Shown in pieces: positions 8,376-41,911 of a DNA stretch of 64,000 nucleotides. Source of the stretch: Giardia intestinalis (taxonomy: Eukaryota); assembly GCA_000002435.2 (NCBI GenBank), contig CM018793.1. One strand, given 5' to 3'. Below the pieces are notes generated by a model. It was not told the DNA's origin. It was given only the letters and a program-made list of their open reading frames with translations, and searched no databases. Position 1 is the first letter of the stretch, and every line of letters begins with the position of its first letter. The position numbers and the translations under genes were made by a program.

Positions 8376-9099
8376 GACAACCAACTAGGGGATTTTACTT
8401 TTGCATTTATCCAAACAATATGGAGATTGAGGTTGTTATATCTGGTTTGCCTTCATCATATTATGATCTGCTTACTTACATTGACTACGAGAGTGATGTA
8501 ATTAGAGGAAGAAGAATGAAGGAGCTATACTATATACTTTTCTGGTGCTATGTTGTCGGGACCCTGCCTGCAAATGAGATGAAAATTAGTCGTGGATAGT
8601 ATAATGAGAGGCTTCTTTTAATAGCATACTCAGGTCTAGTGCATTCTTCAGTTCTCTGTGTGGCGTGTATACCCGACGTGAGTGTGTACTTCCAGTGATG
8701 CCTTGCTTCTTGGTTCTTCTTCATGTCAAGCAGGAGTTCAGTTTGTCACTGTCCTTTTTAACGATGCTTCTATTCGATTCGGTGACAACAGCCATCAGGT
8801 CTCGGGTTCCACTGGGGGTTGTGGTTCTGTGAGCGTTCATTTTAGCAGTATGAGGTCGGCGAGCTGTGGGTCTATGGTTGGCTAGTACGCGATTGCATCT
8901 ATCATCTCACGCTCACTTGGCCTGCTTATAATCTTTGGGTTACTCCAAAGCTCCAGGTGGTTGATACTTTTTTCCTCACAACCCTTCAGGACTCCAATGT
9001 GGAACCTTGCTGCCAATCTGCAAGTAGTTATCGGGCCCGATGTGGATCCTAAGCATTCACTCACTATAAACTGGCTCGCGCAGCTGTAGAGTCAAAACC

Positions 9100-10060
9100 T
9101 ATCATTGCCATGAGCCTCCTGGTCTCTACTGTCTAGATCCCCTTCGATCCCTGCTGTCGCCGCAGGACAAACCAGCACACAAGAGCAAGGACCACAGGGC
9201 GAGGACGGTGACGATGATCGTTGTGGAGCCGGCCTTCCTGGTCTGAGGGGCGCAGTCGTCATTCTTAAGGCTGTATCCTCGCATGCACGTGCAGAAAGGC
9301 GCAAAGGACTCCACCTGTCCGGCAGCCCGGGGTGCACAATCGCTTATTTGGCTGAACGCTGTTGGCGCTATTCGAGTACGAGAGGCACTCGCTGTCTACG
9401 TCACAGCTCGAGCAGCCCGTGTTCTAGGAGGGACAGTTGCTCGTGGGGACGCACTTCCCGGTGCTGTCTGATCCACAGCCGTTCACGCAGACATACCTGT
9501 TGTCACTGTCCTTCTCTTGATCCGGCTCGTTGCACTGGGCCCAGCTTGTAAATGGAACCACTCCATGGGAGCCTCCTGCGTCACGGACCTGTGCTGATCA
9601 GCGCGCCCCTGCTCTCCATCCTGGTGCTGGATGGGTGATGTGTCACACAGGCAGACCTGGAGGCAGAAGAGGAAGGGAGGGGCGGGGCATTTTAATTCGC
9701 AAAATGAACTCGACGGAGAACGCGTAATCGCTTGATGGGGGTCCTGAGGAGGCATTGAACGGCACTCAGTCTGTTCACTGATAGCCAGACAGCACACCTC
9801 TGCCAGCCAAGCAGCCGGTCCTCTGTCTCTTCGTAGGGAACAGGCAGAGCTACACTTGTTGAAGGAGCTCGGGTGTCACGCGACGCACGAGGACGTATCC
9901 CTTCCAGTCTCTTACACGACTTTTCCAGCTTGTACTGCACAGTGCGAGCAGGCAAGGCCGATGCAAAACCGTTTACAAACACCGAACGTGATACTCGGCA
10001 CCCGCTGAGGTAGAGCAGGCACTGCTGCATCACTAGACATACACCGATGAAGCTTGACAA
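9100..10060 (-). pseudogene. Decayed cysteine-rich (EGF-like, HCMP- or VSP-like) membrane protein gene remnant broken by frameshifts
   Basis: Cys-rich peptides lie in three minus-strand frames: ...QCNEPDQEKDSDNRYVCVNGCGSDSTGKCVPTSNCPS*, NTGCSSCDVDSECLSYSNS...CTPGCRTGG, and ...FCTCMRGYSLKNDDCAPQTRKAGSTTIIVTVLALWSLLLCAGLSCGD. The last fragment ends in a TM helix plus short tail. No intact ORF spans them. Confidence 0.3.
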
Positions 10061-10062
10061 CC

Positions 10063-12786
10063 CTATATCGACTTGGAGGGAATGAGCGTCATAGTACTGG
10101 GGGACGCATCGATGCGTCTGCCCCTAAAAATGAACCACCAGCAAAGGAAACCGACCAAGGCACCGATGGCGACCATAGCGACGGAGATTTCCATAATGGT
10201 CCTCATGGAGAGGCTGCTCTTGTTCGTGCTTCTGCCAGTACTGTTGCCATCTTTCATGAGGTAGCAGAGGACGGAGCCAGTATTGCTACCAATAGGAGGG
10301 ACACAGTTTAAGCAACCCTTGACACTAGTGATTGCATTGCCATCAGTTCCACTGTTACTTGTGCATTTCACGCATTTATTGTCAGTGGTTTTGTAATACC
10401 CTGCTAAGCAATCTGTGCAGGTTTCCTTACTACCCGCACACTTCACACATCCTTCAGTACACGCCGGACATTTTCCTCCAGCTGGGCTTTGTCCATTGGC
10501 ACACGTTTGGCATTGTCCCTTATTCTGTGCAGCCGTACATACAGAGCTACCAGGAAGCTTCTGTGTGTTGTAGCATCCGCCCGATAACAGAGCGTAGTTT
10601 GCTCCACACTCAGTGCATTTCCCGCCACTTGCCTTACATCCGGAGGCATCCCTCGCTGTTGCAGGTATGGATGTGCAGACGCCGTCGACTGGGGCGTACC
10701 CCTCCTCGCACTGATCGCAGTACTTCGAGCCTCCGACGTTCAGTGAGCAGCCGTCGGCCTTGCAGTGGGCCATAAAGTCTCCCGTGCACTCTTTTATGCA
10801 CGTTCCTGTGTCATCAGATGACCGACTCAGCACATACCCCGGATAGCAGGCCGTACACGACGTTTCTGCGTTAGTACTACAGCTTGCGCATGTATTGTGA
10901 CAGGAAGCGCAAATGCCGGTACTGTCACGATTATCGGGATATGTGCCGGCAGGGCACTCCTCCAGACATGCATCATTAAGGGGGCTCAGTCTTTTGGTCT
11001 CACACCCAGAGCACGTAACTATTGGACCTGCTCTTGCAGACGCTGCCTTGAGAGAGCACTTTGCACAGTCGGCTATGCCACCATTAGCAGTATCGCTGCA
11101 CTTAGCGCACACCTTCTTGCCCTGTGCATCGGTCGTGGGGAAGAATCCATCCTTACACTCCTCTGCACTGACACAGCTGGGTGTCTCACCAGCTTTGAAG
11201 TAGAGCCCGTCCTTACACTCTTCACATATATTATCCACCACACAGCTCTTGCAGTTGGTGTCAGAGCACAGCACACACCCACTGCCACCCTTGTTGGGCA
11301 CCTTACTATTGTCACAGGAGGTACAGACAGCGGGGGTCATACCACCATCAGATGGAGCTGTCGGGGCCTTACATTGTGAGCAGCCCTCGACCCCCACATA
11401 TGCCTTAGCAGTACCTTGAGGATCTACTAGTGTGCCTAGAGGATTGCCACAAGCTAGCACAGACTGATCAGTAGCCTGTGCCTCTGGTACTACGAAGTAC
11501 TTATTACTTGCCGCTTCTGTGCATATCCCACTACTATCTGCTTTCTTGCACATATGACTACCTGGTACTTGACCAACCTTATAACAGCCATTCATGTACA
11601 AGAAGTAATCAGCAGTACACTGTGTGCATGTATGACTGTCACAAGTATTAGCTCCCTTCTTACCACTATCACTAGTGCATATACCATCTATAGGAGCTTG
11701 TGAACTATCTCCACAATAGGAACAGTAGTGCTTTGCATTGCCCTTATCATCTATTATCATGGCATCGCAGGCACCAGAAGTACCACCACAAGCCGTGGGG
11801 TCCTCGCAGGTCTTCACACATGTATAGTCATCATTTGCATCTTCATTGGACTGCTTCTTATAGTTGGGCTTACAGTCAGTGCACTTGAACCCATTATTGT
11901 TAGAACATAGACTACAGCCTTCGTGGCCCCCATTGGTTGTATCACTACAAGCAACGCACTTCTTCCCCTGTGGATCTGTAGTAGTTACCAAGAAGTATCC
12001 CGGCATGCATGTATCACACTTATTTGGATCACCAGCAACAGAACATGTGGCACAGTTATCACCACAAGCATCACAAGCTGTATCACTAGTCTTAAAGAAG
12101 CCCGGAAGGCACTTAGTGCATTGTTGTGCTGCAGTACAGGTTGCACAATTAGGAACTCCCTTAGATTCATCACCACACAAAAGGCACGCAGTATCACCAT
12201 CTTTGAAATGATAATCATCTTGGCATCCAGAGCTCATATCAACACAGGTTGTTGTCCCATCCAGCTCTGTCTTCACCTTCTTACCGTTACAGGCACTGCA
12301 CACCGGCTTCTGTAGCTTTGCATCGTACGTGCAAGCAGTGCACTCTGGTATGCCCCCCTGATCTGCTGCACCGTTACAGGCTGTGCACTTCCCAGTGCTT
12401 GGGTCGGGGTACTTATCTCCATTACAACTGCTAGCCTCTACACAATTGTTCCCATCGAGATATTTCCCGCTCGCACAGAGAGTGCACTTAGTTGCGCCCT
12501 CACCGCTGCAAGTCAGACAAGCTTTATCGCAGACTTTGCATTCGTTGGTATTGGGTGATTTGTATGATCCGGCAGCACACTCTGTACATGTAACTACTCC
12601 TGCACTCTGTGGTGCCTGACACTGTGCGCAGTTGGCCACTCCCATGACCCCGTTTCTATCTGTAGTATCCCAGCACAAGATGCACTCGCTACCAGGCTTC
12701 GGTGTTGCATCAGGGTTCTGGAATATGTACTTGTTATCTGCCTTACAAGCAGTGCACAGTCCATCACTGGCTGCTGTGCATATCAC
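10063..12786 (-). pseudogene. VSP-family cysteine-rich surface protein paralog, 5'-truncated, with a degenerate C-terminal tail
   Basis: 907 codons rich in CXXC and GGCY motifs, ending ...VAIGALVGFLCWWF like a VSP TM helix. The conserved LCRGKA-stop is replaced by IFRGRRIDASPSTMTLIPSKSI. The ORF begins at a GTG with no signal peptide, directly after the stop and polyA signal of the upstream VSP. Confidence 0.55.
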
Positions 12787-12861
12787 ACTCCACTATCACC
12801 CATTATCACCCACTATCACCCACTATCACCTTCTATCACACACTATCACACATTGTACAGC
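12787..12861. repeat. Degenerate 10-bp microsatellite (CACTATCACC; minus-strand GGTGATAGTG) of about 7 units, between the two VSP-family genes
   Basis: Direct reading: cactatcacc cattatcacc cactatcacc cactatcacc ttctatcaca cactatcaca. Confidence 0.7.
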
Positions 12862-12875
12862 ATTCACTACCTAAG
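12862..12875 (-). promoter_or_regulatory. VSP extended polyadenylation signal CTTAGGTAGTGAAT immediately 3' of the VSP stop
   Basis: Minus-strand sequence after the TGA at 12878-12876 reads CTTAGGTAGTGAAT, matching the conserved VSP 3' motif with an AGTRAAY core. Confidence 0.7.
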
Positions 12876-15800
12876 TCACGCCTTCCCCCTGCAGAGGAAC
12901 CACCAGCAGAGGAAGCCCACGAGGCCCCCCACGACGACGACCACAGCGACGGAGATCCCCGCGATAGCCCCCGTGGAGAGCCCGCTACTCTTGTTTGTGC
13001 TACCGCTATCATTTATGAGGTAGCAGACGACAGATCCTTGATTATTAGGTGGAGGAGCGCAGCTCATGCAGCCAGCAACTCCCTTGACACTTCCACTGTT
13101 GCTGTCACACGAAATACATGTGTTTGGCCCTGACCCGACCATATAGTACCCAGCTGCGCATGACGTACACTTATCAGAGCTATCTGCAGTCGAGCATGTC
13201 TTGCAGGTCGAATGACACGAGGGGCATGCTCCATCATTGGGCTGAAGACTATTGGCGCACGTCTGACATCCACCATTGCTATCAGCTAGTGTGCATATCT
13301 GTATGCCAGGTTGTCTGCCGAGTTTATAGCAGCCTCCATCTTGAAGGAAATGATCTGCAGCACACTGAGTGCATACGCCACCTGCTGCGTTCGTGCAGAA
13401 TGAATTCCTTGTTACTGAATTAGCGCACACGCCATTCTGAGGTGCCCACTTATCTTCCTTGCATTTTGAACAGTACTTCGTACCGCCGATTACCGCTCCA
13501 CACTCTGCACACCCGTCCACCTCTGCTTTGCACTCATCTACACAAGATCCACCTTGATTAGGATCATCATTGGTGTACTGGAGCCTCTTCCCGGGAGGAC
13601 ACAGCGTGCACTTCGCTGGCCCCTTTGTGGTGCACCCAGCACAGCTAGGATCACAAGGCTCGCACGCTTTGTCTCCATCATAGTAGCTTCCTATTGCTCC
13701 GCAGCTCTGCGTGCACTGCTTTGTCGGGGTGAGGTAATCGCCGTCATTACATTCAGTGCAGATTTCGTTGTCTGTTTTGGGGTTGTCACAGGTCTTACAG
13801 TTGGGAGTATTGCAGGCCGTCTCTGATACGCACGTCGTCCCGTCCGACGAGGGCTTGTTCCCAGGCGTGCACTCGCAGACCCCACTATTTTCTGTGGTCA
13901 CGCTCGGAGGGCACGAAGCGATGCAGCCCTTCTTGTCCGGCCTGACCTTCTTTGAGGACGAGCAGGTGAGGCAGGTTTGTGCGCTACCCGTGCCGGTGCA
14001 GGTCGCACAGCCCGCGGTGGTCAAGGGGTCCTCGCATTGATCTGCGTTTGGGACGCACGTCGTCCCGTCCGACGAGGGCTTGTTCCCAGGCGTGCACTCG
14101 CAGACCCCACTATTTTCTGTGGTCACGCTCGGAGGGCACGAAGCGATGCAGCCCTTCTTGTCCGGCCTGACCTTCTTTGAGGACGAGCAGGTGAGGCAGG
14201 TTTGTGCGCTACCCGTGCCGGTGCAGGTCGCACAGCCCGCGGTGGTCAAGGGGTCCTCGCATTGATCTGCGTTTGGGACGCACGTCGTCCCGTCCGACGA
14301 GGGCTTGTTCCCAGGCGTGCACTCGCAGACCCCACTATTTTCTGTGGTCACGCTCGGAGGGCACGAAGCGATGCAGCCCTTCTTGTCCGGCCTGACCTTC
14401 TTTGAGGACGAGCAGGTGAGGCAGGTTTGTGCGCTACCCGTGCCGGTGCAGGTCGCACAGCCCGCGGTGGTCAAGGGGTCCTCGCATTGATCTGCGTTTG
14501 GGACGCACGTCGTCCCGTCCGACGAGGGCTTGTTCCCAGGCGTGCACTCGCAGACCCCACTATTTTCTGTGGTCACGCTCGGAGGGCACGAAGCGATGCA
14601 GCCCTTCTTGTCCGGCCTGACCTTCTTTGAGGACGAGCAGGTGAGGCAGGTTTGTGCGCTACCCGTGCCGGTGCAGGTCGCACAGCCCGCGGTGGTCAAG
14701 GGGTCCTCGCATTGATCTGCGTTTGGGACGCACGTCGTCCCGTCCGACGAGGGCTTGTTCCCAGGCGTGCACTCGCAGACCCCACTATTTTCTGTGGTCA
14801 CGCTCGGAGGGCACGAAGCGATGCAGCCCTTCTTGTCCGGCCTGACCTTCTTTGAGGACGAGCAGGTGAGGCAGGTTTGTGCGCTACCCGTGCCGGTGCA
14901 GGTCGCACAGCCCGCGGTGGTCAAGGGGTCCTCGCATTGATCTGCGTTTGGGACGCACGTCGTCCCGTCCGACGAGGGCTTGTTCCCAGGCGTGCACTCG
15001 CAGACCCCACTATTTTCTGTGGTCACGCTCGGAGGGCACGAAGCGATGCAGCCCTTCTTGTCCGGCCTGACCTTCTTTGAGGACGAGCAGGTGAGGCAGG
15101 TTTGTGCGCTACCCGTGCCGGTGCAGGTCGCACAGCCCGCGGTGGTCAAGGGGTCCTCGCATTGATCTGCGTTTGGGACGCACGTCGTCCCGTCCGACGA
15201 GGGCTTGTTCCCAGGCGTGCACTCGCAGACCCCACTATTTTCTGTGGTCACGCTCGGAGGGCACGAAGCGATGCAGCCCTTCTTGTCCGGCCTGACCTTC
15301 TTTGAGGACGAGCAGGTGAGGCAGGTTTGTGCGCTACCCGTGCCGGTGCAGGTCGCACAGCCCGCGGTGGTCAAGGGGTCCTCGCATTGATCTGCGTTTG
15401 GGACGCACGTCGTCCCGTCCGACGAGGGCTTGTTCCCAGGCGTGCACTCGCAGACCCCACTATTTTCTGTGGTCACGCTCGGAGGGCACGAAGCGATGCA
15501 GCCCTTCTTGTCCGGCCTGACCTTCTTTGAGGACGAGCAGGTGAGGCAGGTTTGTGCGCTACCCGTGCCGGTGCAGGTCGCACAGCCCGCGGTGGTCAAG
15601 GGGTCCTCGCATTGATCTGCGTTTGGGACGCACGTCGTCCCGTCCGACGAGGGCTTGTTCCCAGGCGTGCACTCGCAGACCCCACTATTTTCTGTGGTCA
15701 CGCTCGGAGGGCACGAAGCGATGCAGCCCTTCTTGTCCGGCCTGACCTTCTTTGAGGACGAGCAGGTGAGGCAGGTTTGTGCGCTACCCGTGCCGGTGCA

Positions 15801-18641
15801 GGTCGCACAGCCCGCGGTGGTCAAGGGGTCCTCGCATTGATCTGCGTTTGGGACGCACGTCGTCCCGTCCGACGAGGGCTTGTTCCCAGGCGTGCACTCG
15901 CAGACCCCACTATTTTCTGTGGTCACGCTCGGAGGGCACGAAGCGATGCAGCCCTTCTTGTCCGGCCTGACCTTCTTTGAGGACGAGCAGGTGAGGCAGG
16001 TTTGTGCGCTACCCGTGCCGGTGCAGGTCGCACAGCCCGCGGTGGTCAAGGGGTCCTCGCATTGATCTGCGTTTGGGACGCACGTCGTCCCGTCCGACGA
16101 GGGCTTGTTCCCAGGCGTGCACTCGCAGACCCCACTATTTTCTGTGGTCACGCTCGGAGGGCACGAAGCGATGCAGCCCTTCTTGTCCGGCCTGACCTTC
16201 TTTGAGGACGAGCAGGTGAGGCAGGTTTGTGCGCTACCCGTGCCGGTGCAGGTCGCACAGCCCGCGGTGGTCAAGGGGTCCTCGCATTGATCTGCGTTTG
16301 GGACGCACGTCGTCCCGTCCGACGAGGGCTTGTTCCCAGGCGTGCACTCGCAGACCCCACTATTTTCTGTGGTCACGCTCGGAGGGCACGAAGCGATGCA
16401 GCCCTTCTTGTCCGGCCTGACCTTCTTTGAGGACGAGCAGGTGAGGCAGGTTTGTGCGCTACCCGTGCCGGTGCAGGTCGCACAGCCCGCGGTGGTCAAG
16501 GGGTCCTCGCATTGATCTGCGTTTGGGACGCACGTCGTCCCGTCCGACGAGGGCTTGTTCCCAGGCGTGCACTCGCAGACCCCACTATTTTCTGTGGTCA
16601 CGCTCGGAGGGCACGAAGCGATGCAGCCCTTCTTGTCCGGCCTGACCTTCTTTGAGGACGAGCAGGTGAGGCAGGTTTGTGCGCTACCCGTGCCGGTGCA
16701 GGTCGCACAGCCCGCGGTGGTCAAGGGGTCCTCGCATTGATCTGCGTTTGGGACGCACGTCGTCCCGTCCGACGAGGGCTTGTTCCCAGGCGTGCACTCG
16801 CAGACCCCACTATTTTCTGTGGTCACGCTCGGAGGGCACGAAGCGATGCAGCCCTTCTTGTCCGGCCTGACCTTCTTTGAGGACGAGCAGGTGAGGCAGG
16901 TTTGTGCGCTACCCGTGCCGGTGCAGGTCGCACAGCCCGCGGTGGTCAAGGGGTCCTCGCATTGATCTGCGTTTGGGACGCACGTCGTCCCGTCCGACGA
17001 GGGCTTGTTCCCAGGCGTGCACTCGCAGACCCCACTATTTTCTGTGGTCACGCTCGGAGGGCACGAAGCGATGCAGCCCTTCTTGTCCGGCCTGACCTTC
17101 TTTGAGGACGAGCAGGTGAGGCAGGTTTGTGCGCTACCCGTGCCGGTGCAGGTCGCACAGCCCGCGGTGGTCAAGGGGTCCTCGCATTGATCTGCGTTTG
17201 GGACGCACGTCGTCCCGTCCGACGAGGGCTTGTTCCCAGGCGTGCACTCGCAGACCCCACTATTTTCTGTGGTCACGCTCGGAGGGCACGAAGCGATGCA
17301 GCCCTTCTTGTCCGGCCTGACCTTCTTTGAGGACGAGCAGGTGAGGCAGGTTTGTGCGCTACCCGTGCCGGTGCAGGTCGCACAGCCCGCGGTGGTCAAG
17401 GGGTCCTCGCATTGATCTGCGTTTGGGACGCACGTCGTCCCGTCCGACGAGGGCTTGTTCCCAGGCGTGCACTCGCAGACCCCACTATTTTCTGTGGTCA
17501 CGCTCGGAGGGCACGAAGCGATGCAGCCCTTCTTGTCCGGCCTGACCTTCTTTGAGGACGAGCAGGTGAGGCAGGTTTGTGCGCTACCCGTGCCGGTGCA
17601 GGTCGCACAGCCCGCGGTGGTCAAGGGGTCCTCGCATTGATCTGCGTTTGGGACGCACGTCGTCCCGTCCGACGAGGGCTTGTTCCCAGGCGTGCACTCG
17701 CAGACCCCACTATTTTCTGTGGTCACGCTCGGAGGGCACGAAGCGATGCAGCCCTTCTTGTCCGGCCTGACCTTCTTTGAGGACGAGCAGGTGAGGCAGG
17801 TTTGTGCGCTACCCGTGCCGGTGCAGGTCGCACAGCCCGCGGTGGTCAAGGGGTCCTCGCATTGATCTGCGTTTGGGACGCACGTCGTCCCGTCCGACGA
17901 GGGCTTGTTCCCAGGCGTGCACTCGCAGACCCCACTATTTTCTGTGGTCACGCTCGGAGGGCACGAAGCGATGCAGCCCTTCTTGTCCGGCCTGACCTTC
18001 TTTGAGGACGAGCAGGTGAGGCAGGTTTGTGCGCTACCCGTGCCGGTGCAGGTCGCACAGCCCGCGGTGGTCAAGGGGTCCTCGCATTGATCTGCGTTTG
18101 GGACGCACGTCGTCCCGTCCGACGAGGGCTTGTTCCCAGGCGTGCACTCGCAGACCCCACTATTTTCTGTGGTCACGCTCGGAGGGCACGAAGCGATGCA
18201 GCCCTTCTTGTCCGGCCTGACCTTCTTTGAGGACGAGCAGGTGAGGCAGGTTTGTGCGCTACCCGTGCCGGTGCAGGTCGCACAGCCCGCGGTGGTCAAG
18301 GGGTCCTCGCATTGATCTGCGTTTGGGACGCACGTCGTCCCGTCCGACGAGGGCTTGTTCCCAGGCGTGCACTCGCAGACCCCACTATTTTCTGTGGTCA
18401 CGCTCGGAGGGCACGAAGCGATGCAGCCCTTCTTGTCCGGCCTGACCTTCTTTGAGGACGAGCAGGTGAGGCAGGTTTGTGCGCTACCCGTGCCGGTGCA
18501 GGTCGCACAGCCCGCGGTGGTCAAGGGGTCCTCGCATTGATCTGCGTTTGGGACGCACGTCTGCCCGTTCGCCGACGGCGTGTTCCCAGCCTTGCAGTTT
18601 GCCCGTGCTACTGTACAAAATAGAAGAAGCCCTAGCAACAT
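12876..18641 (-). CDS. Variant-specific surface protein (VSP), 1921 aa, with ~21 tandem 75-aa cysteine-rich repeats
   Basis: Signal peptide MLLGLLLFCTVARA (ATG confirmed at 18641). Multiple CXXC motifs, GGCY motif, C-terminal TM helix and CRGKA* tail. Each repeat unit CVPNADQCEDPLTTAGCATCTGTGSAQTCLTCSSSKKVRPDKKGCIASCPPSVTTENSGVCECTPGNKPSSDGTT has 10 Cys. Confidence 0.85.
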   Translation of the reverse strand: MLLGLLLFCTVARANCKAGNTPSANGQTCVPNADQCEDPLTTAGCATCTGTGSAQTCLTCSSSKKVRPDKKGCIASCPPSVTTENSGVCECTPGNKPSSDGTTCVPNADQCEDPLTTAGCATCTGTGSAQTCLTCSSSKKVRPDKKGCIASCPPSVTTENSGVCECTPGNKPSSDGTTCVPNADQCEDPLTTAGCATCTGTGSAQTCLTCSSSKKVRPDKKGCIASCPPSVTTENSGVCECTPGNKPSSDGTTCVPNADQCEDPLTTAGCATCTGTGSAQTCLTCSSSKKVRPDKKGCIASCPPSVTTENSGVCECTPGNKPSSDGTTCVPNADQCEDPLTTAGCATCTGTGSAQTCLTCSSSKKVRPDKKGCIASCPPSVTTENSGVCECTPGNKPSSDGTTCVPNADQCEDPLTTAGCATCTGTGSAQTCLTCSSSKKVRPDKKGCIASCPPSVTTENSGVCECTPGNKPSSDGTTCVPNADQCEDPLTTAGCATCTGTGSAQTCLTCSSSKKVRPDKKGCIASCPPSVTTENSGVCECTPGNKPSSDGTTCVPNADQCEDPLTTAGCATCTGTGSAQTCLTCSSSKKVRPDKKGCIASCPPSVTTENSGVCECTPGNKPSSDGTTCVPNADQCEDPLTTAGCATCTGTGSAQTCLTCSSSKKVRPDKKGCIASCPPSVTTENSGVCECTPGNKPSSDGTTCVPNADQCEDPLTTAGCATCTGTGSAQTCLTCSSSKKVRPDKKGCIASCPPSVTTENSGVCECTPGNKPSSDGTTCVPNADQCEDPLTTAGCATCTGTGSAQTCLTCSSSKKVRPDKKGCIASCPPSVTTENSGVCECTPGNKPSSDGTTCVPNADQCEDPLTTAGCATCTGTGSAQTCLTCSSSKKVRPDKKGCIASCPPSVTTENSGVCECTPGNKPSSDGTTCVPNADQCEDPLTTAGCATCTGTGSAQTCLTCSSSKKVRPDKKGCIASCPPSVTTENSGVCECTPGNKPSSDGTTCVPNADQCEDPLTTAGCATCTGTGSAQTCLTCSSSKKVRPDKKGCIASCPPSVTTENSGVCECTPGNKPSSDGTTCVPNADQCEDPLTTAGCATCTGTGSAQTCLTCSSSKKVRPDKKGCIASCPPSVTTENSGVCECTPGNKPSSDGTTCVPNADQCEDPLTTAGCATCTGTGSAQTCLTCSSSKKVRPDKKGCIASCPPSVTTENSGVCECTPGNKPSSDGTTCVPNADQCEDPLTTAGCATCTGTGSAQTCLTCSSSKKVRPDKKGCIASCPPSVTTENSGVCECTPGNKPSSDGTTCVPNADQCEDPLTTAGCATCTGTGSAQTCLTCSSSKKVRPDKKGCIASCPPSVTTENSGVCECTPGNKPSSDGTTCVPNADQCEDPLTTAGCATCTGTGSAQTCLTCSSSKKVRPDKKGCIASCPPSVTTENSGVCECTPGNKPSSDGTTCVPNADQCEDPLTTAGCATCTGTGSAQTCLTCSSSKKVRPDKKGCIASCPPSVTTENSGVCECTPGNKPSSDGTTCVPNADQCEDPLTTAGCATCTGTGSAQTCLTCSSSKKVRPDKKGCIASCPPSVTTENSGVCECTPGNKPSSDGTTCVSETACNTPNCKTCDNPKTDNEICTECNDGDYLTPTKQCTQSCGAIGSYYDGDKACEPCDPSCAGCTTKGPAKCTLCPPGKRLQYTNDDPNQGGSCVDECKAEVDGCAECGAVIGGTKYCSKCKEDKWAPQNGVCANSVTRNSFCTNAAGGVCTQCAADHFLQDGGCYKLGRQPGIQICTLADSNGGCQTCANSLQPNDGACPSCHSTCKTCSTADSSDKCTSCAAGYYMVGSGPNTCISCDSNSGSVKGVAGCMSCAPPPNNQGSVVCYLINDSGSTNKSSGLSTGAIAGISVAVVVVVGGLVGFLCWWFLCRGKA
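13838..18560. repeat. Perfect tandem array, 225-bp unit x about 21 copies (intragenic, in the VSP)
   Basis: Sequence lines repeat exactly with period 225 bp from ~14040 to ~18540. The first and last units diverge at the array edges. Confidence 0.9.
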
Positions 18642-31913: not shown

Positions 31914-34900
31914 CTAACAACCTCTCCAAGTGCTGGTTTGGGTCTTCAGAAGATTTGCTATTTCAGTGTGCCCATTTTCTACAGCCAGCTTGTAGGCCGT
32001 CATACCATCATTGCGCACAAGATCTGCTTCCTTGTCGATCAATAGCTTCACTGCACGCATATTTCCCTGCTGTGCTGCAAACATAAGGGCTGACCAACCG
32101 TCCCTGTTCTGTTTTCCGCTTTGAATTAGGTAGGCTTTGATGTCGGCCTCATTTCCAAGTGCTACCGCTTGCATTAACCGTGTATTGCCGTACCAGTCGA
32201 CCAGGTCTGTCAGAATAACTTGTTGACCAATCGTATTAGGAATGGAGGTGCGAGGACTGGAGACAGGGGTAATTACATCGGGAAGATATCCAACAGAGCC
32301 CATAATTCCCTGCAATCGCTCTTCTTGTTCGTTATAGGCTTGTGATTTGGCTAAATATGCTTTTTTATATCGCTTTACCTCACCCCGCAAGTCTTCGACT
32401 TCTTGCACTAAAGCATCAGATAGACTTACATCTGAACCTAGGTGGTGAAGGTCAGTCAAGGTCAAGCCATTGCTAGGTAAAACAGGATTAGTCTTATCTG
32501 GTTCAGCAAATTGTTTGGCCTTTAGCTCAGCTATAGCGGACGATAAAGCAGAATTTTCAGCCTGAAGCCTCAAACGCGCATCCTCTGACTCACGTAACTG
32601 TATGGCTTTTCGAAGGTATCCTGATTTGTACTTAAATACTCTGTCCTTTAACTCTTTTTCCGATAACGGGTTGATGTTCGACCTAGCATAATCAGCTTTT
32701 GTAAGACGCAATAGAGCATTATCTTTGCGAAGATCCTCTAGTTCTCGTTGCAGTTCGGCAAGTGTGGGCTCGTGAGCCCTATCATGCAGGGATGACGAAT
32801 GTGTAGCAAGGAATAAGTCATCGACAGGTTTAGATTCATCGGAGACCTTCTGTGCCAGGACGTCCCCGGTGGGCTGGGAGAGCAGGGCCTCCTGGAGGCG
32901 CTTGATCTCGCGGTCCTTCTCGGCCAGGAGCGCGTCGTAGTCGGTGGTGGTCTGGGCCAGGCGCGGGCTCGCGGCTCCGCTAGCGACGGCGTCCTCGAGG
33001 CGCTTGCTGAGGCCTTCGTTCTCCTTGACCTTTTCTGCCAGTCGGCCAAGGGCGCTTTGGATTGCAGCCCGGTCTGCCTGCTCGTTGGCGCGCAGCTGCT
33101 GCCGGAGATCGTCCAGCGCCTGCTGGTGCCGGGCTTCGTCGGCTGCGCGAGCCTCTTCCGCGGCCCGGAGAAGGGCAGGATAGTCAATGGCGGGCTCGGC
33201 GGCTGCGGCCTGGAGGCGGGCAAGCTCTTCGTCACGGGCTTGGAGGGCCTCTTCAAGGGCCTGGATTCGGGCTGCTGCCCCGGGCTCTTCGGATTCGAGA
33301 GATCTCGGGTCCTGGGCGGCGAGCCTCTCCTGAAGCCTGGAGATCTCGGCGTTCTTCCGTTCGGCATCTGTCCTTGCTTCCGCAGCGGCATCTTCTAGAG
33401 CCCGGATGCGAGCCGTAAGTCCATCAATGGTAACTGGCAATTCGCCCTCGGCGCTTGCAGATTCCACACCCTGGACGATATTGCCCATGAGTTGTGTAAC
33501 CAGGCTGCCGTTGTCCTGAACCTTGTCGGCGAGCTGGTTGATAGCTGTTTGCAGACCATCTGCAGGAGACCGCGTTGCAGAAAGTGCGTCTCTGAGTTGG
33601 GCAATCTCGTCGTCCTTCTGTGCCAGGACGTCCCCGGTGGGCTGGGAGAGCAGGGCCTCCTGGAGGCGCTTGATCTCGCGGTCCTTCTCGGCCAGGAGCG
33701 CGTCGTAGTCGGTGGTGGTCTGGGCCAGGCGCGGGCTCGCGGCTCCGCTAGCGACGGCGTCCTCGAGGCGCTTGCTGAGGCCTTCGTTCTCCTTGACCTT
33801 TTCTGCCAGTCGGCCAAGGGCGCTTTGGATTGCAGCCCGGTCTGCCTGCTCGTTGGCGCGCAGCTGCTGCCGGAGATCGTCCAGCGCCTGCTGGTGCCGG
33901 GCTTCGTCGGCTGCGCGAGCCTCTTCCGCGGCCCGGAGAAGGGCAGGATAGTCAATGGCGGGCTCGGCGGCTGCGGCCTGGAGGCGGGCAAGCTCTTCGT
34001 CACGGGCTTGGAGGGCCTCTTCAAGGGCCTGGATTCGGGCTGCTGCCCCGGGCTCTTCGGATTCGAGAGATCTCGGGTCCTGGGCGGCGAGCCTCTCCTG
34101 AAGCCTGGAGATCTCGGCGTTCTTCCGTTCGGCATCTGTCCTTGCTTCCGCAGCGGCATCTTCTAGAGCCCGGATGCGAGCCGTAAGTCCATCAATGGTA
34201 ACTGGCAATTCGCCCTCGGCGCTTGCAGATTCCACACCCTGGACGATATTGCCCATGAGTTGTGTAACCAGGCTGCCGTTGTCCTGAACCTTGTCGGCGA
34301 GCTGGTTGATAGCTGTTTGCAGACCATCTGCAGGAGACCGCGTTGCAGAAAGTGCGTCTCTGAGTTGGGCAATCTCGTCGTCCTTCTGTGCCAGGACGTC
34401 CCCGGTGGGCTGGGAGAGCAGGGCCTCCTGGAGGCGCTTGATCTCGCGGTCCTTCTCGGCCAGGAGCGCGTCGTAGTCGGTGGTGGTCTGGGCCAGGCGC
34501 GGGCTCGCGGCTCCGCTAGCGACGGCGTCCTCGAGGCGCTTGCTGAGGCCTTCGTTCTCCTTGACCTTTTCTGCCAGTCGGCCAAGGGCGCTTTGGATTG
34601 CAGCCCGGTCTGCCTGCTCGTTGGCGCGCAGCTGCTGCCGGAGATCGTCCAGCGCCTGCTGGTGCCGGGCTTCGTCGGCTGCGCGAGCCTCTTCCGCGGC
34701 CCGGAGAAGGGCAGGATAGTCAATGGCGGGCTCGGCGGCTGCGGCCTGGAGGCGGGCAAGCTCTTCGTCACGGGCTTGGAGGGCCTCTTCAAGGGCCTGG
34801 ATTCGGGCTGCTGCCCCGGGCTCTTCGGATTCGAGAGATCTCGGGTCCTGGGCGGCGAGCCTCTCCTGAAGCCTGGAGATCTCGGCGTTCTTCCGTTCGG

Positions 34901-37900
34901 CATCTGTCCTTGCTTCCGCAGCGGCATCTTCTAGAGCCCGGATGCGAGCCGTAAGTCCATCAATGGTAACTGGCAATTCGCCCTCGGCGCTTGCAGATTC
35001 CACACCCTGGACGATATTGCCCATGAGTTGTGTAACCAGGCTGCCGTTGTCCTGAACCTTGTCGGCGAGCTGGTTGATAGCTGTTTGCAGACCATCTGCA
35101 GGAGACCGCGTTGCAGAAAGTGCGTCTCTGAGTTGGGCAATCTCGTCGTCCTTCTGTGCCAGGACGTCCCCGGTGGGCTGGGAGAGCAGGGCCTCCTGGA
35201 GGCGCTTGATCTCGCGGTCCTTCTCGGCCAGGAGCGCGTCGTAGTCGGTGGTGGTCTGGGCCAGGCGCGGGCTCGCGGCTCCGCTAGCGACGGCGTCCTC
35301 GAGGCGCTTGCTGAGGCCTTCGTTCTCCTTGACCTTTTCTGCCAGTCGGCCAAGGGCGCTTTGGATTGCAGCCCGGTCTGCCTGCTCGTTGGCGCGCAGC
35401 TGCTGCCGGAGATCGTCCAGCGCCTGCTGGTGCCGGGCTTCGTCGGCTGCGCGAGCCTCTTCCGCGGCCCGGAGAAGGGCAGGATAGTCAATGGCGGGCT
35501 CGGCGGCTGCGGCCTGGAGGCGGGCAAGCTCTTCGTCACGGGCTTGGAGGGCCTCTTCAAGGGCCTGGATTCGGGCTGCTGCCCCGGGCTCTTCGGATTC
35601 GAGAGATCTCGGGTCCTGGGCGGCGAGCCTCTCCTGAAGCCTGGAGATCTCGGCGTTCTTCCGTTCGGCATCTGTCCTTGCTTCCGCAGCGGCATCTTCT
35701 AGAGCCCGGATGCGAGCCGTAAGTCCATCAATGGTAACTGGCAATTCGCCCTCGGCGCTTGCAGATTCCACACCCTGGACGATATTGCCCATGAGTTGTG
35801 TAACCAGGCTGCCGTTGTCCTGAACCTTGTCGGCGAGCTGGTTGATAGCTGTTTGCAGACCATCTGCAGGAGACCGCGTTGCAGAAAGTGCGTCTCTGAG
35901 TTGGGCAATCTCGTCGTCCTTCTGTGCCAGGACGTCCCCGGTGGGCTGGGAGAGCAGGGCCTCCTGGAGGCGCTTGATCTCGCGGTCCTTCTCGGCCAGG
36001 AGCGCGTCGTAGTCGGTGGTGGTCTGGGCCAGGCGCGGGCTCGCGGCTCCGCTAGCGACGGCGTCCTCGAGGCGCTTGCTGAGGCCTTCGTTCTCCTTGA
36101 CCTTTTCTGCCAGTCGGCCAAGGGCGCTTTGGATTGCAGCCCGGTCTGCCTGCTCGTTGGCGCGCAGCTGCTGCCGGAGATCGTCCAGCGCCTGCTGGTG
36201 CCGGGCTTCGTCGGCTGCGCGAGCCTCTTCCGCGGCCCGGAGAAGGGCAGGATAGTCAATGGCGGGCTCGGCGGCTGCGGCCTGGAGGCGGGCAAGCTCT
36301 TCGTCACGGGCTTGGAGGGCCTCTTCAAGGGCCTGGATTCGGGCTGCTGCCCCGGGCTCTTCGGATTCGAGAGATCTCGGGTCCTGGGCGGCGAGCCTCT
36401 CCTGAAGCCTGGAGATCTCGGCGTTCTTCCGTTCGGCATCTGTCCTTGCTTCCGCAGCGGCATCTTCTAGAGCCCGGATGCGAGCCGTAAGTCCATCAAT
36501 GGTAACTGGCAATTCGCCCTCGGCGCTTGCAGATTCCACACCCTGGACGATATTGCCCATGAGTTGTGTAACCAGGCTGCCGTTGTCCTGAACCTTGTCG
36601 GCGAGCTGGTTGATAGCTGTTTGCAGACCATCTGCAGGAGACCGCGTTGCAGAAAGTGCGTCTCTGAGTTGGGCAATCTCGTCGTCCTTCTGTGCCAGGA
36701 CGTCCCCGGTGGGCTGGGAGAGCAGGGCCTCCTGGAGGCGCTTGATCTCGCGGTCCTTCTCGGCCAGGAGCGCGTCGTAGTCGGTGGTGGTCTGGGCCAG
36801 GCGCGGGCTCGCGGCTCCGCTAGCGACGGCGTCCTCGAGGCGCTTGCTGAGGCCTTCGTTCTCCTTGACCTTTTCTGCCAGTCGGCCAAGGGCGCTTTGG
36901 ATTGCAGCCCGGTCTGCCTGCTCGTTGGCGCGCAGCTGCTGCCGGAGATCGTCCAGCGCCTGCTGGTGCCGGGCTTCGTCGGCTGCGCGAGCCTCTTCCG
37001 CGGCCCGGAGAAGGGCAGGATAGTCAATGGCGGGCTCGGCGGCTGCGGCCTGGAGGCGGGCAAGCTCTTCGTCACGGGCTTGGAGGGCCTCTTCAAGGGC
37101 CTGGATTCGGGCTGCTGCCCCGGGCTCTTCGGATTCGAGAGATCTCGGGTCCTGGGCGGCGAGCCTCTCCTGAAGCCTGGAGATCTCGGCGTTCTTCCGT
37201 TCGGCATCTGTCCTTGCTTCCGCAGCGGCATCTTCTAGAGCCCGGATGCGAGCCGTAAGTCCATCAATGGTAACTGGCAATTCGCCCTCGGCGCTTGCAG
37301 ATTCCACACCCTGGACGATATTGCCCATGAGTTGTGTAACCAGGCTGCCGTTGTCCTGAACCTTGTCGGCGAGCTGGTTGATAGCTGTTTGCAGACCATC
37401 TGCAGGAGACCGCGTTGCAGAAAGTGCGTCTCTGAGTTGGGCAATCTCGTCGTCCTTCTGTGCCAGGACGTCCCCGGTGGGCTGGGAGAGCAGGGCCTCC
37501 TGGAGGCGCTTGATCTCGCGGTCCTTCTCGGCCAGGAGCGCGTCGTAGTCGGTGGTGGTCTGGGCCAGGCGCGGGCTCGCGGCTCCGCTAGCGACGGCGT
37601 CCTCGAGGCGCTTGCTGAGGCCTTCGTTCTCCTTGACCTTTTCTGCCAGTCGGCCAAGGGCGCTTTGGATTGCAGCCCGGTCTGCCTGCTCGTTGGCGCG
37701 CAGCTGCTGCCGGAGATCGTCCAGCGCCTGCTGGTGCCGGGCTTCGTCGGCTGCGCGAGCCTCTTCCGCGGCCCGGAGAAGGGCAGGATAGTCAATGGCG
37801 GGCTCGGCGGCTGCGGCCTGGAGGCGGGCAAGCTCTTCGTCACGGGCTTGGAGGGCCTCTTCAAGGGCCTGGATTCGGGCTGCTGCCCCGGGCTCTTCGG

Positions 37901-40900
37901 ATTCGAGAGATCTCGGGTCCTGGGCGGCGAGCCTCTCCTGAAGCCTGGAGATCTCGGCGTTCTTCCGTTCGGCATCTGTCCTTGCTTCCGCAGCGGCATC
38001 TTCTAGAGCCCGGATGCGAGCCGTAAGTCCATCAATGGTAACTGGCAATTCGCCCTCGGCGCTTGCAGATTCCACACCCTGGACGATATTGCCCATGAGT
38101 TGTGTAACCAGGCTGCCGTTGTCCTGAACCTTGTCGGCGAGCTGGTTGATAGCTGTTTGCAGACCATCTGCAGGAGACCGCGTTGCAGAAAGTGCGTCTC
38201 TGAGTTGGGCAATCTCGTCGTCCTTCTGTGCCAGGACGTCCCCGGTGGGCTGGGAGAGCAGGGCCTCCTGGAGGCGCTTGATCTCGCGGTCCTTCTCGGC
38301 CAGGAGCGCGTCGTAGTCGGTGGTGGTCTGGGCCAGGCGCGGGCTCGCGGCTCCGCTAGCGACGGCGTCCTCGAGGCGCTTGCTGAGGCCTTCGTTCTCC
38401 TTGACCTTTTCTGCCAGTCGGCCAAGGGCGCTTTGGATTGCAGCCCGGTCTGCCTGCTCGTTGGCGCGCAGCTGCTGCCGGAGATCGTCCAGCGCCTGCT
38501 GGTGCCGGGCTTCGTCGGCTGCGCGAGCCTCTTCCGCGGCCCGGAGAAGGGCAGGATAGTCAATGGCGGGCTCGGCGGCTGCGGCCTGGAGGCGGGCAAG
38601 CTCTTCGTCACGGGCTTGGAGGGCCTCTTCAAGGGCCTGGATTCGGGCTGCTGCCCCGGGCTCTTCGGATTCGAGAGATCTCGGGTCCTGGGCGGCGAGC
38701 CTCTCCTGAAGCCTGGAGATCTCGGCGTTCTTCCGTTCGGCATCTGTCCTTGCTTCCGCAGCGGCATCTTCTAGAGCCCGGATGCGAGCCGTAAGTCCAT
38801 CAATGGTAACTGGCAATTCGCCCTCGGCGCTTGCAGATTCCACACCCTGGACGATATTGCCCATGAGTTGTGTAACCAGGCTGCCGTTGTCCTGAACCTT
38901 GTCGGCGAGCTGGTTGATAGCTGTTTGCAGACCATCTGCAGGAGACCGCGTTGCAGAAAGTGCGTCTCTGAGTTGGGCAATCTCGTCGTCCTTCTGTGCC
39001 AGGACGTCCCCGGTGGGCTGGGAGAGCAGGGCCTCCTGGAGGCGCTTGATCTCGCGGTCCTTCTCGGCCAGGAGCGCGTCGTAGTCGGTGGTGGTCTGGG
39101 CCAGGCGCGGGCTCGCGGCTCCGCTAGCGACGGCGTCCTCGAGGCGCTTGCTGAGGCCTTCGTTCTCCTTGACCTTTTCTGCCAGTCGGCCAAGGGCGCT
39201 TTGGATTGCAGCCCGGTCTGCCTGCTCGTTGGCGCGCAGCTGCTGCCGGAGATCGTCCAGCGCCTGCTGGTGCCGGGCTTCGTCGGCTGCGCGAGCCTCT
39301 TCCGCGGCCCGGAGAAGGGCAGGATAGTCAATGGCGGGCTCGGCGGCTGCGGCCTGGAGGCGGGCAAGCTCTTCGTCACGGGCTTGGAGGGCCTCTTCAA
39401 GGGCCTGGATTCGGGCTGCTGCCCCGGGCTCTTCGGATTCGAGAGATCTCGGGTCCTGGGCGGCGAGCCTCTCCTGAAGCCTGGAGATCTCGGCGTTCTT
39501 CCGTTCGGCATCTGTCCTTGCTTCCGCAGCGGCATCTTCTAGAGCCCGGATGCGAGCCGTAAGTCCATCAATGGTAACTGGCAATTCGCCCTCGGCGCTT
39601 GCAGATTCCACACCCTGGACGATATTGCCCATGAGTTGTGTAACCAGGCTGCCGTTGTCCTGAACCTTGTCGGCGAGCTGGTTGATAGCTGTTTGCAGAC
39701 CATCTGCAGGAGACCGCGTTGCAGAAAGTGCGTCTCTGAGTTGGGCAATCTCGTCGTCCTTCTGTGCCAGGACGTCCCCGGTGGGCTGGGAGAGCAGGGC
39801 CTCCTGGAGGCGCTTGATCTCGCGGTCCTTCTCGGCCAGGAGCGCGTCGTAGTCGGTGGTGGTCTGGGCCAGGCGCGGGCTCGCGGCTCCGCTAGCGACG
39901 GCGTCCTCGAGGCGCTTGCTGAGGCCTTCGTTCTCCTTGACCTTTTCTGCCAGTCGGCCAAGGGCGCTTTGGATTGCAGCCCGGTCTGCCTGCTCGTTGG
40001 CGCGCAGCTGCTGCCGGAGATCGTCCAGCGCCTGCTGGTGCCGGGCTTCGTCGGCTGCGCGAGCCTCTTCCGCGGCCCGGAGAAGGGCAGGATAGTCAAT
40101 GGCGGGCTCGGCGGCTGCGGCCTGGAGGCGGGCAAGCTCTTCGTCACGGGCTTGGAGGGCCTCTTCAAGGGCCTGGATTCGGGCTGCTGCCCCGGGCTCT
40201 TCGGATTCGAGAGATCTCGGGTCCTGGGCGGCGAGCCTCTCCTGAAGCCTGGAGATCTCATCGTCCTTTCGCGCTAATACGTCACTGATGGGTTGAGAGA
40301 GAAGCAAATCATTCAAGTTCATTTTGGAGGATTGAATATCATATGCAGGAGTAGGAGCCATTCCCAACATAACTTCATCTAGTAAGTTGTGGTTTGGCGT
40401 ATAAGGAATTGAGGAGGATATATTGATACACAGGTTTCTCAACCGATCGATTTCTTTATCGCGCTCTTTGAGAAGCTTATGAAATTGGGCCCTTATTTCA
40501 TTGACATCATCTGAAGAAAAGTCAGTATCAGGCATAGAAAGAGGAGCTAGAGACACACCGTATGTTGAGATAAGAAGCTCCCTAAAGCAGTTCATTCCAT
40601 CCCTAATATCGATTGGATACTCGGTATTCTTAAAAGAGTGGTAATCGGCGAACGTCTGATAAATGTTCAACAGGTCGTCACGCAAATCTTCTTTATGATC
40701 ACCAGAAGTAAGTGCTGTATCGACTTTATCAGAATAATCCATCAGCAGTTTTCGACAAACCAGCGGGGCAAGAGTAGGCTGCACACATGTCCCATACACC
40801 GGTACGGATGTTCGACTAAGAAATTGCAATTCAACCTCATCCTGGTTTGTGAGGGTGAAGTCTGTTATGCGCTTTGTTCCACATCTATTTGTCGATGTCA

Positions 40901-41828: not shown

Positions 41829-41911
41829 CAATCTCCGAATTTTTTAAATTTTTACCGAACAAATTCAAAAGACGTCACTAATGATTTACTGAAAAGGCCA
41901 TAAGGCATCCC

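What the first reader, a model, noticed from the sequence alone, without database searches (positions are those of the whole stretch)
12787..12875. 10-bp (GGTGATAGTG)n microsatellite fused to the VSP polyA signal at the VSP-VSP junction
The 89-bp spacer between the intact VSP and the truncated paralog holds the conserved CTTAGGTAGTGAAT polyA motif, followed by about seven degenerate 10-bp units. A simple repeat at the exact junction of tandem VSPs is a plausible substrate for unequal crossover or a breakpoint scar. It also sits where VSP 3' regulatory signals act.
Basis: seen in the sequence. Interest (0 to 1): 0.5.

Follow-up and report, generated by a model that had tools for sequence, protein, structure and literature searches.

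The report
Variable 10-bp repeat between Giardia VSPs
A short, imperfect 10-base repeat sits in the 89-base gap between a Giardia surface-antigen (VSP) gene and the start-less gene copy behind it; peptide evidence puts similar repeats, with other copy numbers, at about five other such gaps in this genome, so it looks like a slippage-prone part of a duplicated junction with no shown function.

Summary
On the minus strand, an intact 1921-aa Giardia duodenalis WB VSP ends in CRGKA-TGA. The stop overlaps a perfect extended VSP poly(A) signal (ACTTAGGTAGTGAATGC). An 11-nt linker follows, then six 10-bp units (12850..12791). A seventh GTGATA core forms the first two codons of the downstream start-less ORF. 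TRF scores the array 92; 60 dinucleotide shuffles gave at most 62.

The repeat is not unique, and it is not a private breakpoint scar. Five spurious antisense ORFs from the 2007 WB annotation carry the peptide image of the same flank. After it they show GTGATA-core repeats of period 10 (5-6 cores) or period 6 (2-3 cores). Two or three of them also share the downstream gene's truncation point. One DH (assemblage A2) junction shows the 6-bp form directly in DNA. About eight other VSP 3' flanks lack it.

The locus fits the published VSP "linear array" pattern. Best reading: a slippage-prone short tandem repeat inside a junction module copied with the array unit. It starts at about the predicted cleavage site, so it is probably not in the mature mRNA. 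A role in recombination or 3'-end formation is not excluded and not shown. Polymorphism between isolates could not be tested. Modest interest.

The parts
12876..18641 (-). Intact VSP gene of 1921 aa. It has the signal peptide MLLGLLLFCTVARA, the initiator TAATGTT at the ATG, and the C-terminus CRGKA followed by TGA.
   Evidence: The C-terminal 320 aa hit PF03302 VSPs, best 89% identity.
13828..18596 (-). 21.2 copies of a 225-bp (75-aa) coding tandem repeat inside the VSP, 99% identical to one another.
12860..12876 (-). Extended VSP poly(A) signal ACTTAGGTAGTGAATGC. It overlaps the last base of the stop codon. The hexamer AGTGAA lies at 12868..12863.
   Evidence: It matches the published consensus ACUUAGRUAGURAAYRY (bioRxiv 10.1101/2022.03.07.483299, read).
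12851..12861 (-). Linker GCTGTACAATG. The part GCTGTACA is shared with the DH junction L011 and, as the peptide (T/I)VQHSLPK, with five WB antisense ORFs.
12791..12850 (-). Six imperfect 10-bp units (consensus GGTGATAGTG), each holding a GTGATA core. The predicted mRNA cleavage site falls at about the first unit.
   Evidence: The 13-15 nt distance from hexamer to cleavage site comes from the paper read.
12781..12790 (-). GAGT plus a seventh GTGATA core (12786..12781). The core is also the first two codons (V, I) of the downstream ORF. This is the boundary between the repeat and the truncated coding sequence.
   Evidence: core spacings 13,10,10,10,10,10.
10063..12786 (-). 5'-truncated VSP-like ORF. 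It is 907 codons from a GTG, and the first in-frame ATG at 12645 gives 860 aa. It has no signal peptide and no Inr, and it ends in an HCMP-type tail with no VSP poly(A) signal after it. The 860-aa form is 100% identical to WB 'High cysteine membrane protein Group 1' (XP_001709262.1 / KAE8305144.1). It is probably a pseudogene or silent cassette.

Best explanation
The decamer array is a slippage-prone short tandem repeat. It belongs to a conserved junction module of Giardia WB VSP linear arrays.

The module reads: VSP 3' end, extended poly(A) signal of the AGTGAAT type, GCTGTACA, a GTGATA-core repeat, then a VSP body truncated at '..S-V-I-C-T-A-A-S..'.

Inferred history: one ancestral event joined a 5'-truncated VSP body to the 3' flank of another VSP. 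That unit was then copied, by tandem duplication, unequal exchange or gene conversion, to several places in the genome. In each copy the repeat then drifted in unit number and period, most likely by replication slippage.

At this chromosome-5 locus the array has its largest known size: seven cores, six of them at period 10. It starts about where the upstream VSP transcript is predicted to be cleaved, so it is most likely not part of the mature mRNA and has no demonstrated function of its own.

Shown: the anatomy, the non-randomness, the recurrence at other junctions, and the differing copy numbers.
Inferred: duplication as the origin, slippage as the cause of variation, and neutrality.
For: 1. 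The array is real and non-random.
2. The locus matches the published linear-array pattern. Spacers average 60 bp (range: overlap to 241 bp), the first member carries an Inr, and downstream members lack an Inr or ATG (PMC2996952). Here the spacer is 89 bp, the first gene has TAATGTT, and the second ORF has no start and no signal peptide.
3. DH locus L011 carries, after an identical CTTAGGTAGTGAATGCTGTACA, the sequence GTGATAGTGATAGTG followed by a truncated 99-aa VSP.
4. phmmer with the antisense ORF that crosses the array found five WB ORFs: GL50803_31679, _18368, _31655, _115723 and _18726. Their peptides encode the same flank followed by GTGATA-core repeats. Threading allows 5, 5 and 6 cores at period about 10, and 2 and 3 cores at period 6. 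The window has 7. The other 38 hits allow at most 1.
5. GL50803_18368 and _31655 are 66-67% identical to the window's 80-aa antisense ORF across the 5' end of the truncated gene. The truncation point is therefore shared.
6. The terminal 13-nt spacing next to the truncated gene is also kept in two of the three decamer-type ORFs (GL50803_31679 and _18368; _31655 allows 11), so the variation is mainly internal to the array.
7. Short-period arrays are otherwise rare. None scored above 50 in 123 kb of other Giardia loci, apart from one 16-bp x2 repeat that scored exactly 50.
Against: - The other WB junctions were seen only as peptides of spurious antisense ORFs. Their DNA was back-translated, not read, so core counts are upper bounds.
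- Neutrality is assumed, not tested.
- Every junction with the repeat is followed by a truncated VSP wherever the downstream sequence could be seen. This would also fit a role for the repeat in making such junctions.
- No comparison between isolates at this exact locus was possible. Logan contigs stop near window 9050-9600, and exact-protein look-ups of the flanking ORFs failed.
- The downstream gene has an HCMP-type tail rather than CRGKA, so the 'VSP array unit' label is not exact here.
Confidence: 0.68

Rival explanations
1. Recombination element. The GT-rich repeat upstream of each silent, 5'-truncated cassette is a preferred site for unequal exchange or gene conversion. It would set the 5' limit of cassette transfer, as the 70-bp repeats do upstream of Trypanosoma brucei VSG genes (own knowledge).
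For: - The repeat lies exactly at the 5' boundary of the truncated gene.
- It recurs at several VSP-to-truncated-VSP junctions.
- It is absent from about eight sampled VSP 3' flanks that are not followed by the truncated 'ICTAAS' VSP body.
- Adam et al. proposed that downstream array members act as recombination cassettes (PMC2996952).
Against: - No breakpoint inside a repeat was observed.
- The flanks on both sides of the repeat are conserved together, which simple co-duplication explains just as well.
- The repeat-free flanks come mostly from other assemblages (P15, GS), so the contrast is confounded.
- There is no three-tetrad G-quadruplex motif. Only two-tetrad motifs occur, and about 90-105 of those are found per strand in the window.
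- VSP switching is described as epigenetic rather than recombinational (abstract of PMC2996952).
Confidence: 0.14
2. 3'-end formation element. The GT-rich array just after the cleavage site acts as a downstream or termination element for the upstream VSP. It might compensate for the less common AGUGAA hexamer.
For: - The array begins 12 nt after the hexamer, where cleavage is expected 13-15 nt downstream.
- G+T make up 71% of the spacer.
- All repeat-bearing flanks use the AGTGAAT variant.
Against: - No downstream element is described for Giardia in the papers read.
- A 100-nt VSP 3' region made no difference to expression in the reporter tests cited.
- Copy number ranges from 2 to 7 and the period from 6 to 10, which argues against a constrained signal.
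- One other flank with AGTGAAT (L013, minus strand) has no repeat, though it does not follow a VSP.
Confidence: 0.08
3. Private breakpoint scar. The array is filler DNA or a slippage product created at this locus when the downstream gene lost its 5' end.
For: The array abuts the truncation point, and its seventh core overlaps the first retained codons.
Against: The same flank, repeat and truncation point occur in other WB ORFs. The repeat core also follows the same poly(A) flank in DH.
Confidence: 0.04

Closest known systems
Giardia lamblia VSP linear arrays (Adam et al. 2010, BMC Genomics 11:424; PMC2996952)
   Same: Head-to-tail VSP-family genes separated by a very short spacer (89 bp here; published mean 60 bp, range overlap to 241 bp). 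The first gene has the PyAatgTT initiator and an upstream non-coding region. The downstream member has no Inr and no start codon.
   Different: The paper does not describe any conserved or repetitive sequence in the spacers; the word 'microsatellite' occurs 0 times in it. Here the downstream member carries an HCMP-type tail instead of CRGKA, and the array has only two members.
Extended VSP polyadenylation signal ACUUAGRUAGURAAYRY (bioRxiv 10.1101/2022.03.07.483299)
   Same: An exact 17/17 match overlapping the stop codon (12876..12860).
   Different: The decamer array is not part of this signal. It starts 10 nt after the signal's last base. Similarity between the repeat unit and the signal (7/10) is reached by 14% of random decamers.
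Giardia SSR catalogue (Durigan et al. 2018, PMC6291164)
   Same: That survey reports simple repeats in or near VSP genes, some of them polymorphic, and speculates that they add to antigen diversity.
   Different: In that survey tri- and tetranucleotide repeats were the commonest classes. As far as I read the paper, it does not report a 10-bp unit array or link repeats to array junctions.
Trypanosoma brucei 70-bp repeats upstream of VSG genes (own knowledge, not tested here)
   Same: An imperfect, strand-biased short repeat lies immediately upstream of silent antigen-gene cassettes and varies in copy number between copies.
   Different: This is a different organism, sequence and scale. Gene conversion bounded by the repeat is established for VSG. 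No recombination role is shown for the Giardia repeat.

Membership tests
Giardia VSP linear array | Two or more adjacent head-to-tail VSP genes with a spacer from overlapping to 241 bp | tested here: met
   The spacer is 89 bp (12787-12875) and both ORFs are on the minus strand. The definition comes from PMC2996952.
Giardia VSP linear array | The first member has the Inr PyAatgTT; downstream members lack an Inr and often an ATG | tested here: met
   GGCTAATGTTGC at 18641. The downstream ORF opens with GTG. Its first in-frame ATG is codon 48, in the context GTCATGGG.
Giardia VSP linear array | Every member is a VSP (CRGKA tail plus extended poly(A) signal) | tested here: not met
   The downstream ORF ends ...CWWFIFRGRRIDASPSTMTLIPSKSI and no CTTAGRTAGTRAAY follows it. 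It is annotated HCMP Group 1. It does hit PF03302 and is 47-57% identical to VSPs.
VSP gene (upstream ORF) | Signal peptide, CXXC-rich ectodomain, transmembrane domain, CRGKA tail, extended poly(A) signal | tested here: met
   The signal peptide was judged by eye, not by a predictor.
Microsatellite (SSR, unit 1-6 bp) | Unit length of 1-6 bp | tested here: not met
   The period here is 10. The related DH and WB junctions with GTGATA x2-3 would qualify by unit length but are very short.
Hypervariable tandem repeat | Copy number differs between homologous copies | tested here: met
   Paralogous junctions allow 7, 6, 5, 5, 3, 2 and 2 cores. The peptide-derived counts are inferred. Variation between alleles or isolates at this locus was not testable.
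G-quadruplex-forming repeat | Four or more G3+ runs with loops of 7 nt or less | tested here: not met
   No G3 motif is present. Only two-tetrad motifs occur, and these are common in the window (89 and 105 on the two strands).
Recombination-boundary repeat (70-bp-repeat-like) | Conversion or crossover tracts end in the repeat | not testable with these tools
   This needs breakpoint maps from several isolates or clones.
Known structured RNA | Rfam match at or above the gathering score | tested here: not met
   Nothing was found in 12787-12875. The only hit in 12000-13600 is sR14 at 13520-13574: 19.7 bits against a gathering score of 38, E = 0.015.

The most novel reading that the evidence does not exclude
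The GTGATA-core repeat could be a dedicated recombination boundary that marks the 5' edge of silent VSP cassettes in Giardia linear arrays, working like the 70-bp repeats of trypanosome VSG genes. Array expansion and the creation of new chimeric VSPs would then start preferentially at this repeat.
Probability: 0.08. Interest if true: 0.65.

Novelty: new member of a known kind. Interest (0 to 1): 0.3.

Why it matters
VSP linear arrays hold more than half of the Giardia VSP repertoire, and how they arise and whether they feed antigen diversity are open questions (PMC2996952).

A recognisable junction module with a variable repeat could serve three purposes:
- a sequence tag to trace how array units were copied;
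- a candidate marker for typing closely related assemblage A isolates;
- a concrete site at which to test whether array rearrangements start at the junction.

Taken alone, though, the repeat is a small non-coding feature with no shown function.

Tried and rejected
- Exact-protein look-ups of the 1921-aa VSP and of the 860-aa and 907-aa forms of the downstream ORF all returned 'not on record'.
- A look-up of the WB paralog P0001 also failed.
- Logan contigs carrying the neighbouring 307-aa gene stop at about window 9050-9600, before the junction.
- Syntenic contigs from a 97%-identical isolate (L009) and from P15 (L010) also end before the junction. P15 has a different HCMP at that position.
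- Two scans of JGI metagenome contigs, one for the exact array and one for a degenerate VSP 3'-end pattern, found nothing.
- The junction-spanning ORFs of the window are not in the 15-billion-protein collection.
- The idea that the decamer is a degenerate copy of the poly(A) signal was dropped. The 7/10 match is reached by 14% of random decamers.
- The G-quadruplex idea was dropped.
- The Rfam search gave no credible hit.
- A literature search for the repeat sequence found no Giardia paper among the listed hits (10 of 312).

Full report
**What is in the sequence**

The window is Giardia duodenalis (lamblia) WB. The 860-aa ATG form of the ORF at 12645..10063 is 100% identical to XP_001709262.1 / KAE8305144.1, 'High cysteine membrane protein Group 1', which lies on a 4,018,654-bp contig. 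All relevant features are on the minus strand.

The ORF at 18641..12876 encodes a 1921-aa VSP. It has:
- the signal-peptide-like N-terminus MLLGLLLFCTVARA;
- the initiator TAATGTT at its ATG;
- 21.2 near-identical copies of a 225-bp (75-aa) repeat;
- the canonical C-terminus ...CWWFLCRGKA followed by TGA.

The last base of the stop codon begins ACTTAGGTAGTGAATGC (12876..12860). This is a 17/17 match to the published extended VSP poly(A) signal ACUUAGRUAGURAAYRY. It is the only such motif in the window.

Downstream of the signal come, in order:
- the linker GCTGTACAATG (12861..12851);
- six decamers at 12850..12791: TGTGATAGTG, TGTGATAGAA, GGTGATAGTG, GGTGATAGTG, GGTGATAATG, GGTGATAGTG;
- GAGT and a seventh GTGATA core at 12790..12781.

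**Is it more than chance?**

- TRF reports period 10, 6.0 copies, 86% matches and score 92.
- Sixty dinucleotide-preserving shuffles of the whole window gave a maximum score of 62.
- Lag-10 self-similarity of at least 0.8 in 60-nt windows occurs nowhere else in the 64 kb.

The array is 11 nt from the poly(A) motif rather than fused to it. There are six regular units plus one offset core.

**The two genes**

The upstream gene has every VSP hallmark.

The downstream ORF (12786..10063) opens with GTG and has no in-frame ATG until codon 48. Aligned with full-length paralogs, it lacks about 105 N-terminal residues, including the signal peptide. Homology begins at S-V-I-C-T-A-A-S, directly at the end of the array.

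Its C-terminus is ...CWWFIFRGRRIDASPSTMTLIPSKSI, with no VSP poly(A) signal behind it. This resembles a tail quoted for another WB Cys-rich gene, FLCRGKRISSSTSVTSLIHSKSM. It is therefore an HCMP/CRMP-type tail and not random read-through.

By the published classification (an ORF without a signal peptide), this gene would be counted as a pseudogene. That placement is my inference.

**Fit to known organisation**

Adam et al. 2010 describe VSP 'linear arrays'. In them, head-to-tail genes are separated by a mean of 60 bp (range: overlap to 241 bp). The first gene has an Inr and an upstream non-coding region. Downstream genes lack an Inr and sometimes a start codon, and are thought to be silent cassettes or remnants. 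This locus is a two-member example. That paper does not mention repeats in the spacers.

**Is the repeat unique to this locus?**

No. Two lines of evidence show this.

*DNA evidence.* In the DH (assemblage A2) contig AHGT01000035.1, the 533-aa VSP P0011 is followed by TTAGGTAGTGAATGCTGTACA. That stretch is identical to the window through the A of GCTGTACA. It is then followed by GTGATAGTGATAGTG and a truncated 99-aa VSP. About eight other VSP 3' flanks sampled from DH, P15 and GS lack both GCTGTACA and the repeat.

*Peptide evidence.* I used the spurious 143-aa plus-strand ORF that crosses the array as a probe against 1.84 billion representative proteins.
- It found 43 Giardia ORFs that are antisense to VSP 3' ends.
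- Five of them carry (T/I)VQHSLPK, the peptide image of CTTAGGTAGTGAATGCTGTACA(A/G)T, preceded by cyclic pieces of PLSPTITHYH or by TITIT.
- All five come from the 2007 WB annotation: GL50803_31679, _18368, _31655, _115723 and _18726.
- PLSPTITHYH is what (CCACTATCAC)n encodes in any frame.

Back-translation threading gives the possible TATCAC cores and their spacings:

| Source | Cores | Spacings |
|---|---|---|
| Window | 7 | 13,10,10,10,10,10 |
| GL50803_31679 | 5 | 13,10,10,10 |
| GL50803_18368 | 5 | 13,8,10,10 |
| GL50803_31655 | 6 | 11,10,10,10,10 |
| GL50803_115723 | 2 | 6 |
| GL50803_18726 | 3 | 6,6 |
| The other 38 hits | at most 1 | - |

GL50803_18368 and _31655 are also 66-67% identical to the window's 80-aa antisense ORF over the stretch opposite the 5' end of the truncated gene. 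Those junctions therefore share the truncation point as well. By my own back-translation, GL50803_31679 also seems to share it, with a small indel.

These other WB junctions were seen only as peptides. Their DNA and their genomic positions were not available.

**Interpretation**

The truncation point and the repeat are not a private scar. Together with the poly(A) flank they form a junction module that exists in several diverged copies. The module was most likely spread by duplication of an array unit. The repeat differs in unit number and period between copies, as expected for replication slippage.

The hexamer AGTGAA ends at 12863, and Giardia cleavage sites lie mostly 13-15 nt from the signal. 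The transcript should therefore end at about 12850, at the first unit, which would leave the array outside the mature mRNA. This is an inference; no RNA data were available.

**Rivals**

- *Recombination-promoting role.* This fits the position of the repeat and its recurrence at junctions, but nothing shows breakpoints inside it. The repeat-free comparison flanks come mostly from other assemblages.
- *Downstream 3'-processing element.* This fits the position and the GT-richness. The free variation in copy number and period argues against it.
- *G-quadruplex.* Formation is not supported.
- *Derivation from the poly(A) signal.* This is not statistically supported.
- *Known RNA family.* None matches.

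**What could not be done**

Length polymorphism between isolates at this locus could not be tested. Short-read Logan contigs stop before the junction. Exact-protein look-ups failed. JGI metagenome scans were empty. The syntenic contigs from a close isolate and from P15 end too early.

**Verdict**

This is a real, non-random and locally unusual short tandem repeat. It is a variable component of a multi-copy VSP array junction in Giardia WB. I did not find it described in the papers searched, but it is of a familiar kind and has no demonstrated function. Interest is modest.

Noticed in passing
window 32850-40270 (minus-strand ORF 41831..31914, 3305 aa): A perfect tandem repeat of 768 bp (256 aa), about 9-10 copies, with 100% identity at lag 768 between 33000 and 40000. 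TRF did not report it because the period exceeds 500.
   Followed up: partly
window 12876-18641: The 1921-aa VSP with 21 x 225-bp repeats has no identical or near-identical protein on record. The best match to its C-terminal 320 aa is 89% (WB 'VSP with INR', 419 aa, on another chromosome). Yet its neighbour is 100% identical to an annotated WB protein. The gene may be unannotated, annotated as a pseudogene, or collapsed in earlier assemblies.
   Followed up: partly
L008 1-483 (DH contig AHGT01000018.1): The DH VSP P0002 is 88% identical to the window VSP C-terminus. It also starts with a 225-bp coding repeat, seen as 2.1 copies at the contig edge. The unit sequence differs, and so does the 3' neighbourhood (a kinase and ankyrin genes).
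   Followed up: no
window about 9050-9610; L001-L007, L009: All short-read Logan contigs carrying the conserved neighbours (463-aa AAA_16 protein, 307-aa and 673-aa genes) end within about 600 bp of each other. The break lies downstream of the 673-aa gene and before the cysteine-rich gene, which suggests repeated or heterozygous sequence there.
   Followed up: no
L010 12850-14619 (P15 contig ACVC01000185.1): At the syntenic position, assemblage E has a different high-cysteine membrane protein in the same convergent orientation (tail CWFVLRRRQGQKGVPILAGTKRLMGSVDEF). The contig ends inside it. The site holds a cysteine-rich gene in both assemblages, but not the same one.
   Followed up: partly
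window 13520-13574 (minus): A weak match to the C/D-box snoRNA family sR14 (19.7 bits, gathering score 38, E = 0.015), inside VSP coding sequence. It is probably a chance match.
   Followed up: no
window 10063-10140 (minus): The cytoplasmic tail RGRRIDASPSTMTLIPSKSI of the downstream ORF resembles RGKRISSSTSVTSLIHSKSM, quoted in the literature for GL50803_00114617. This suggests a conserved tail family among HCMP/CRMP genes.
   Followed up: no
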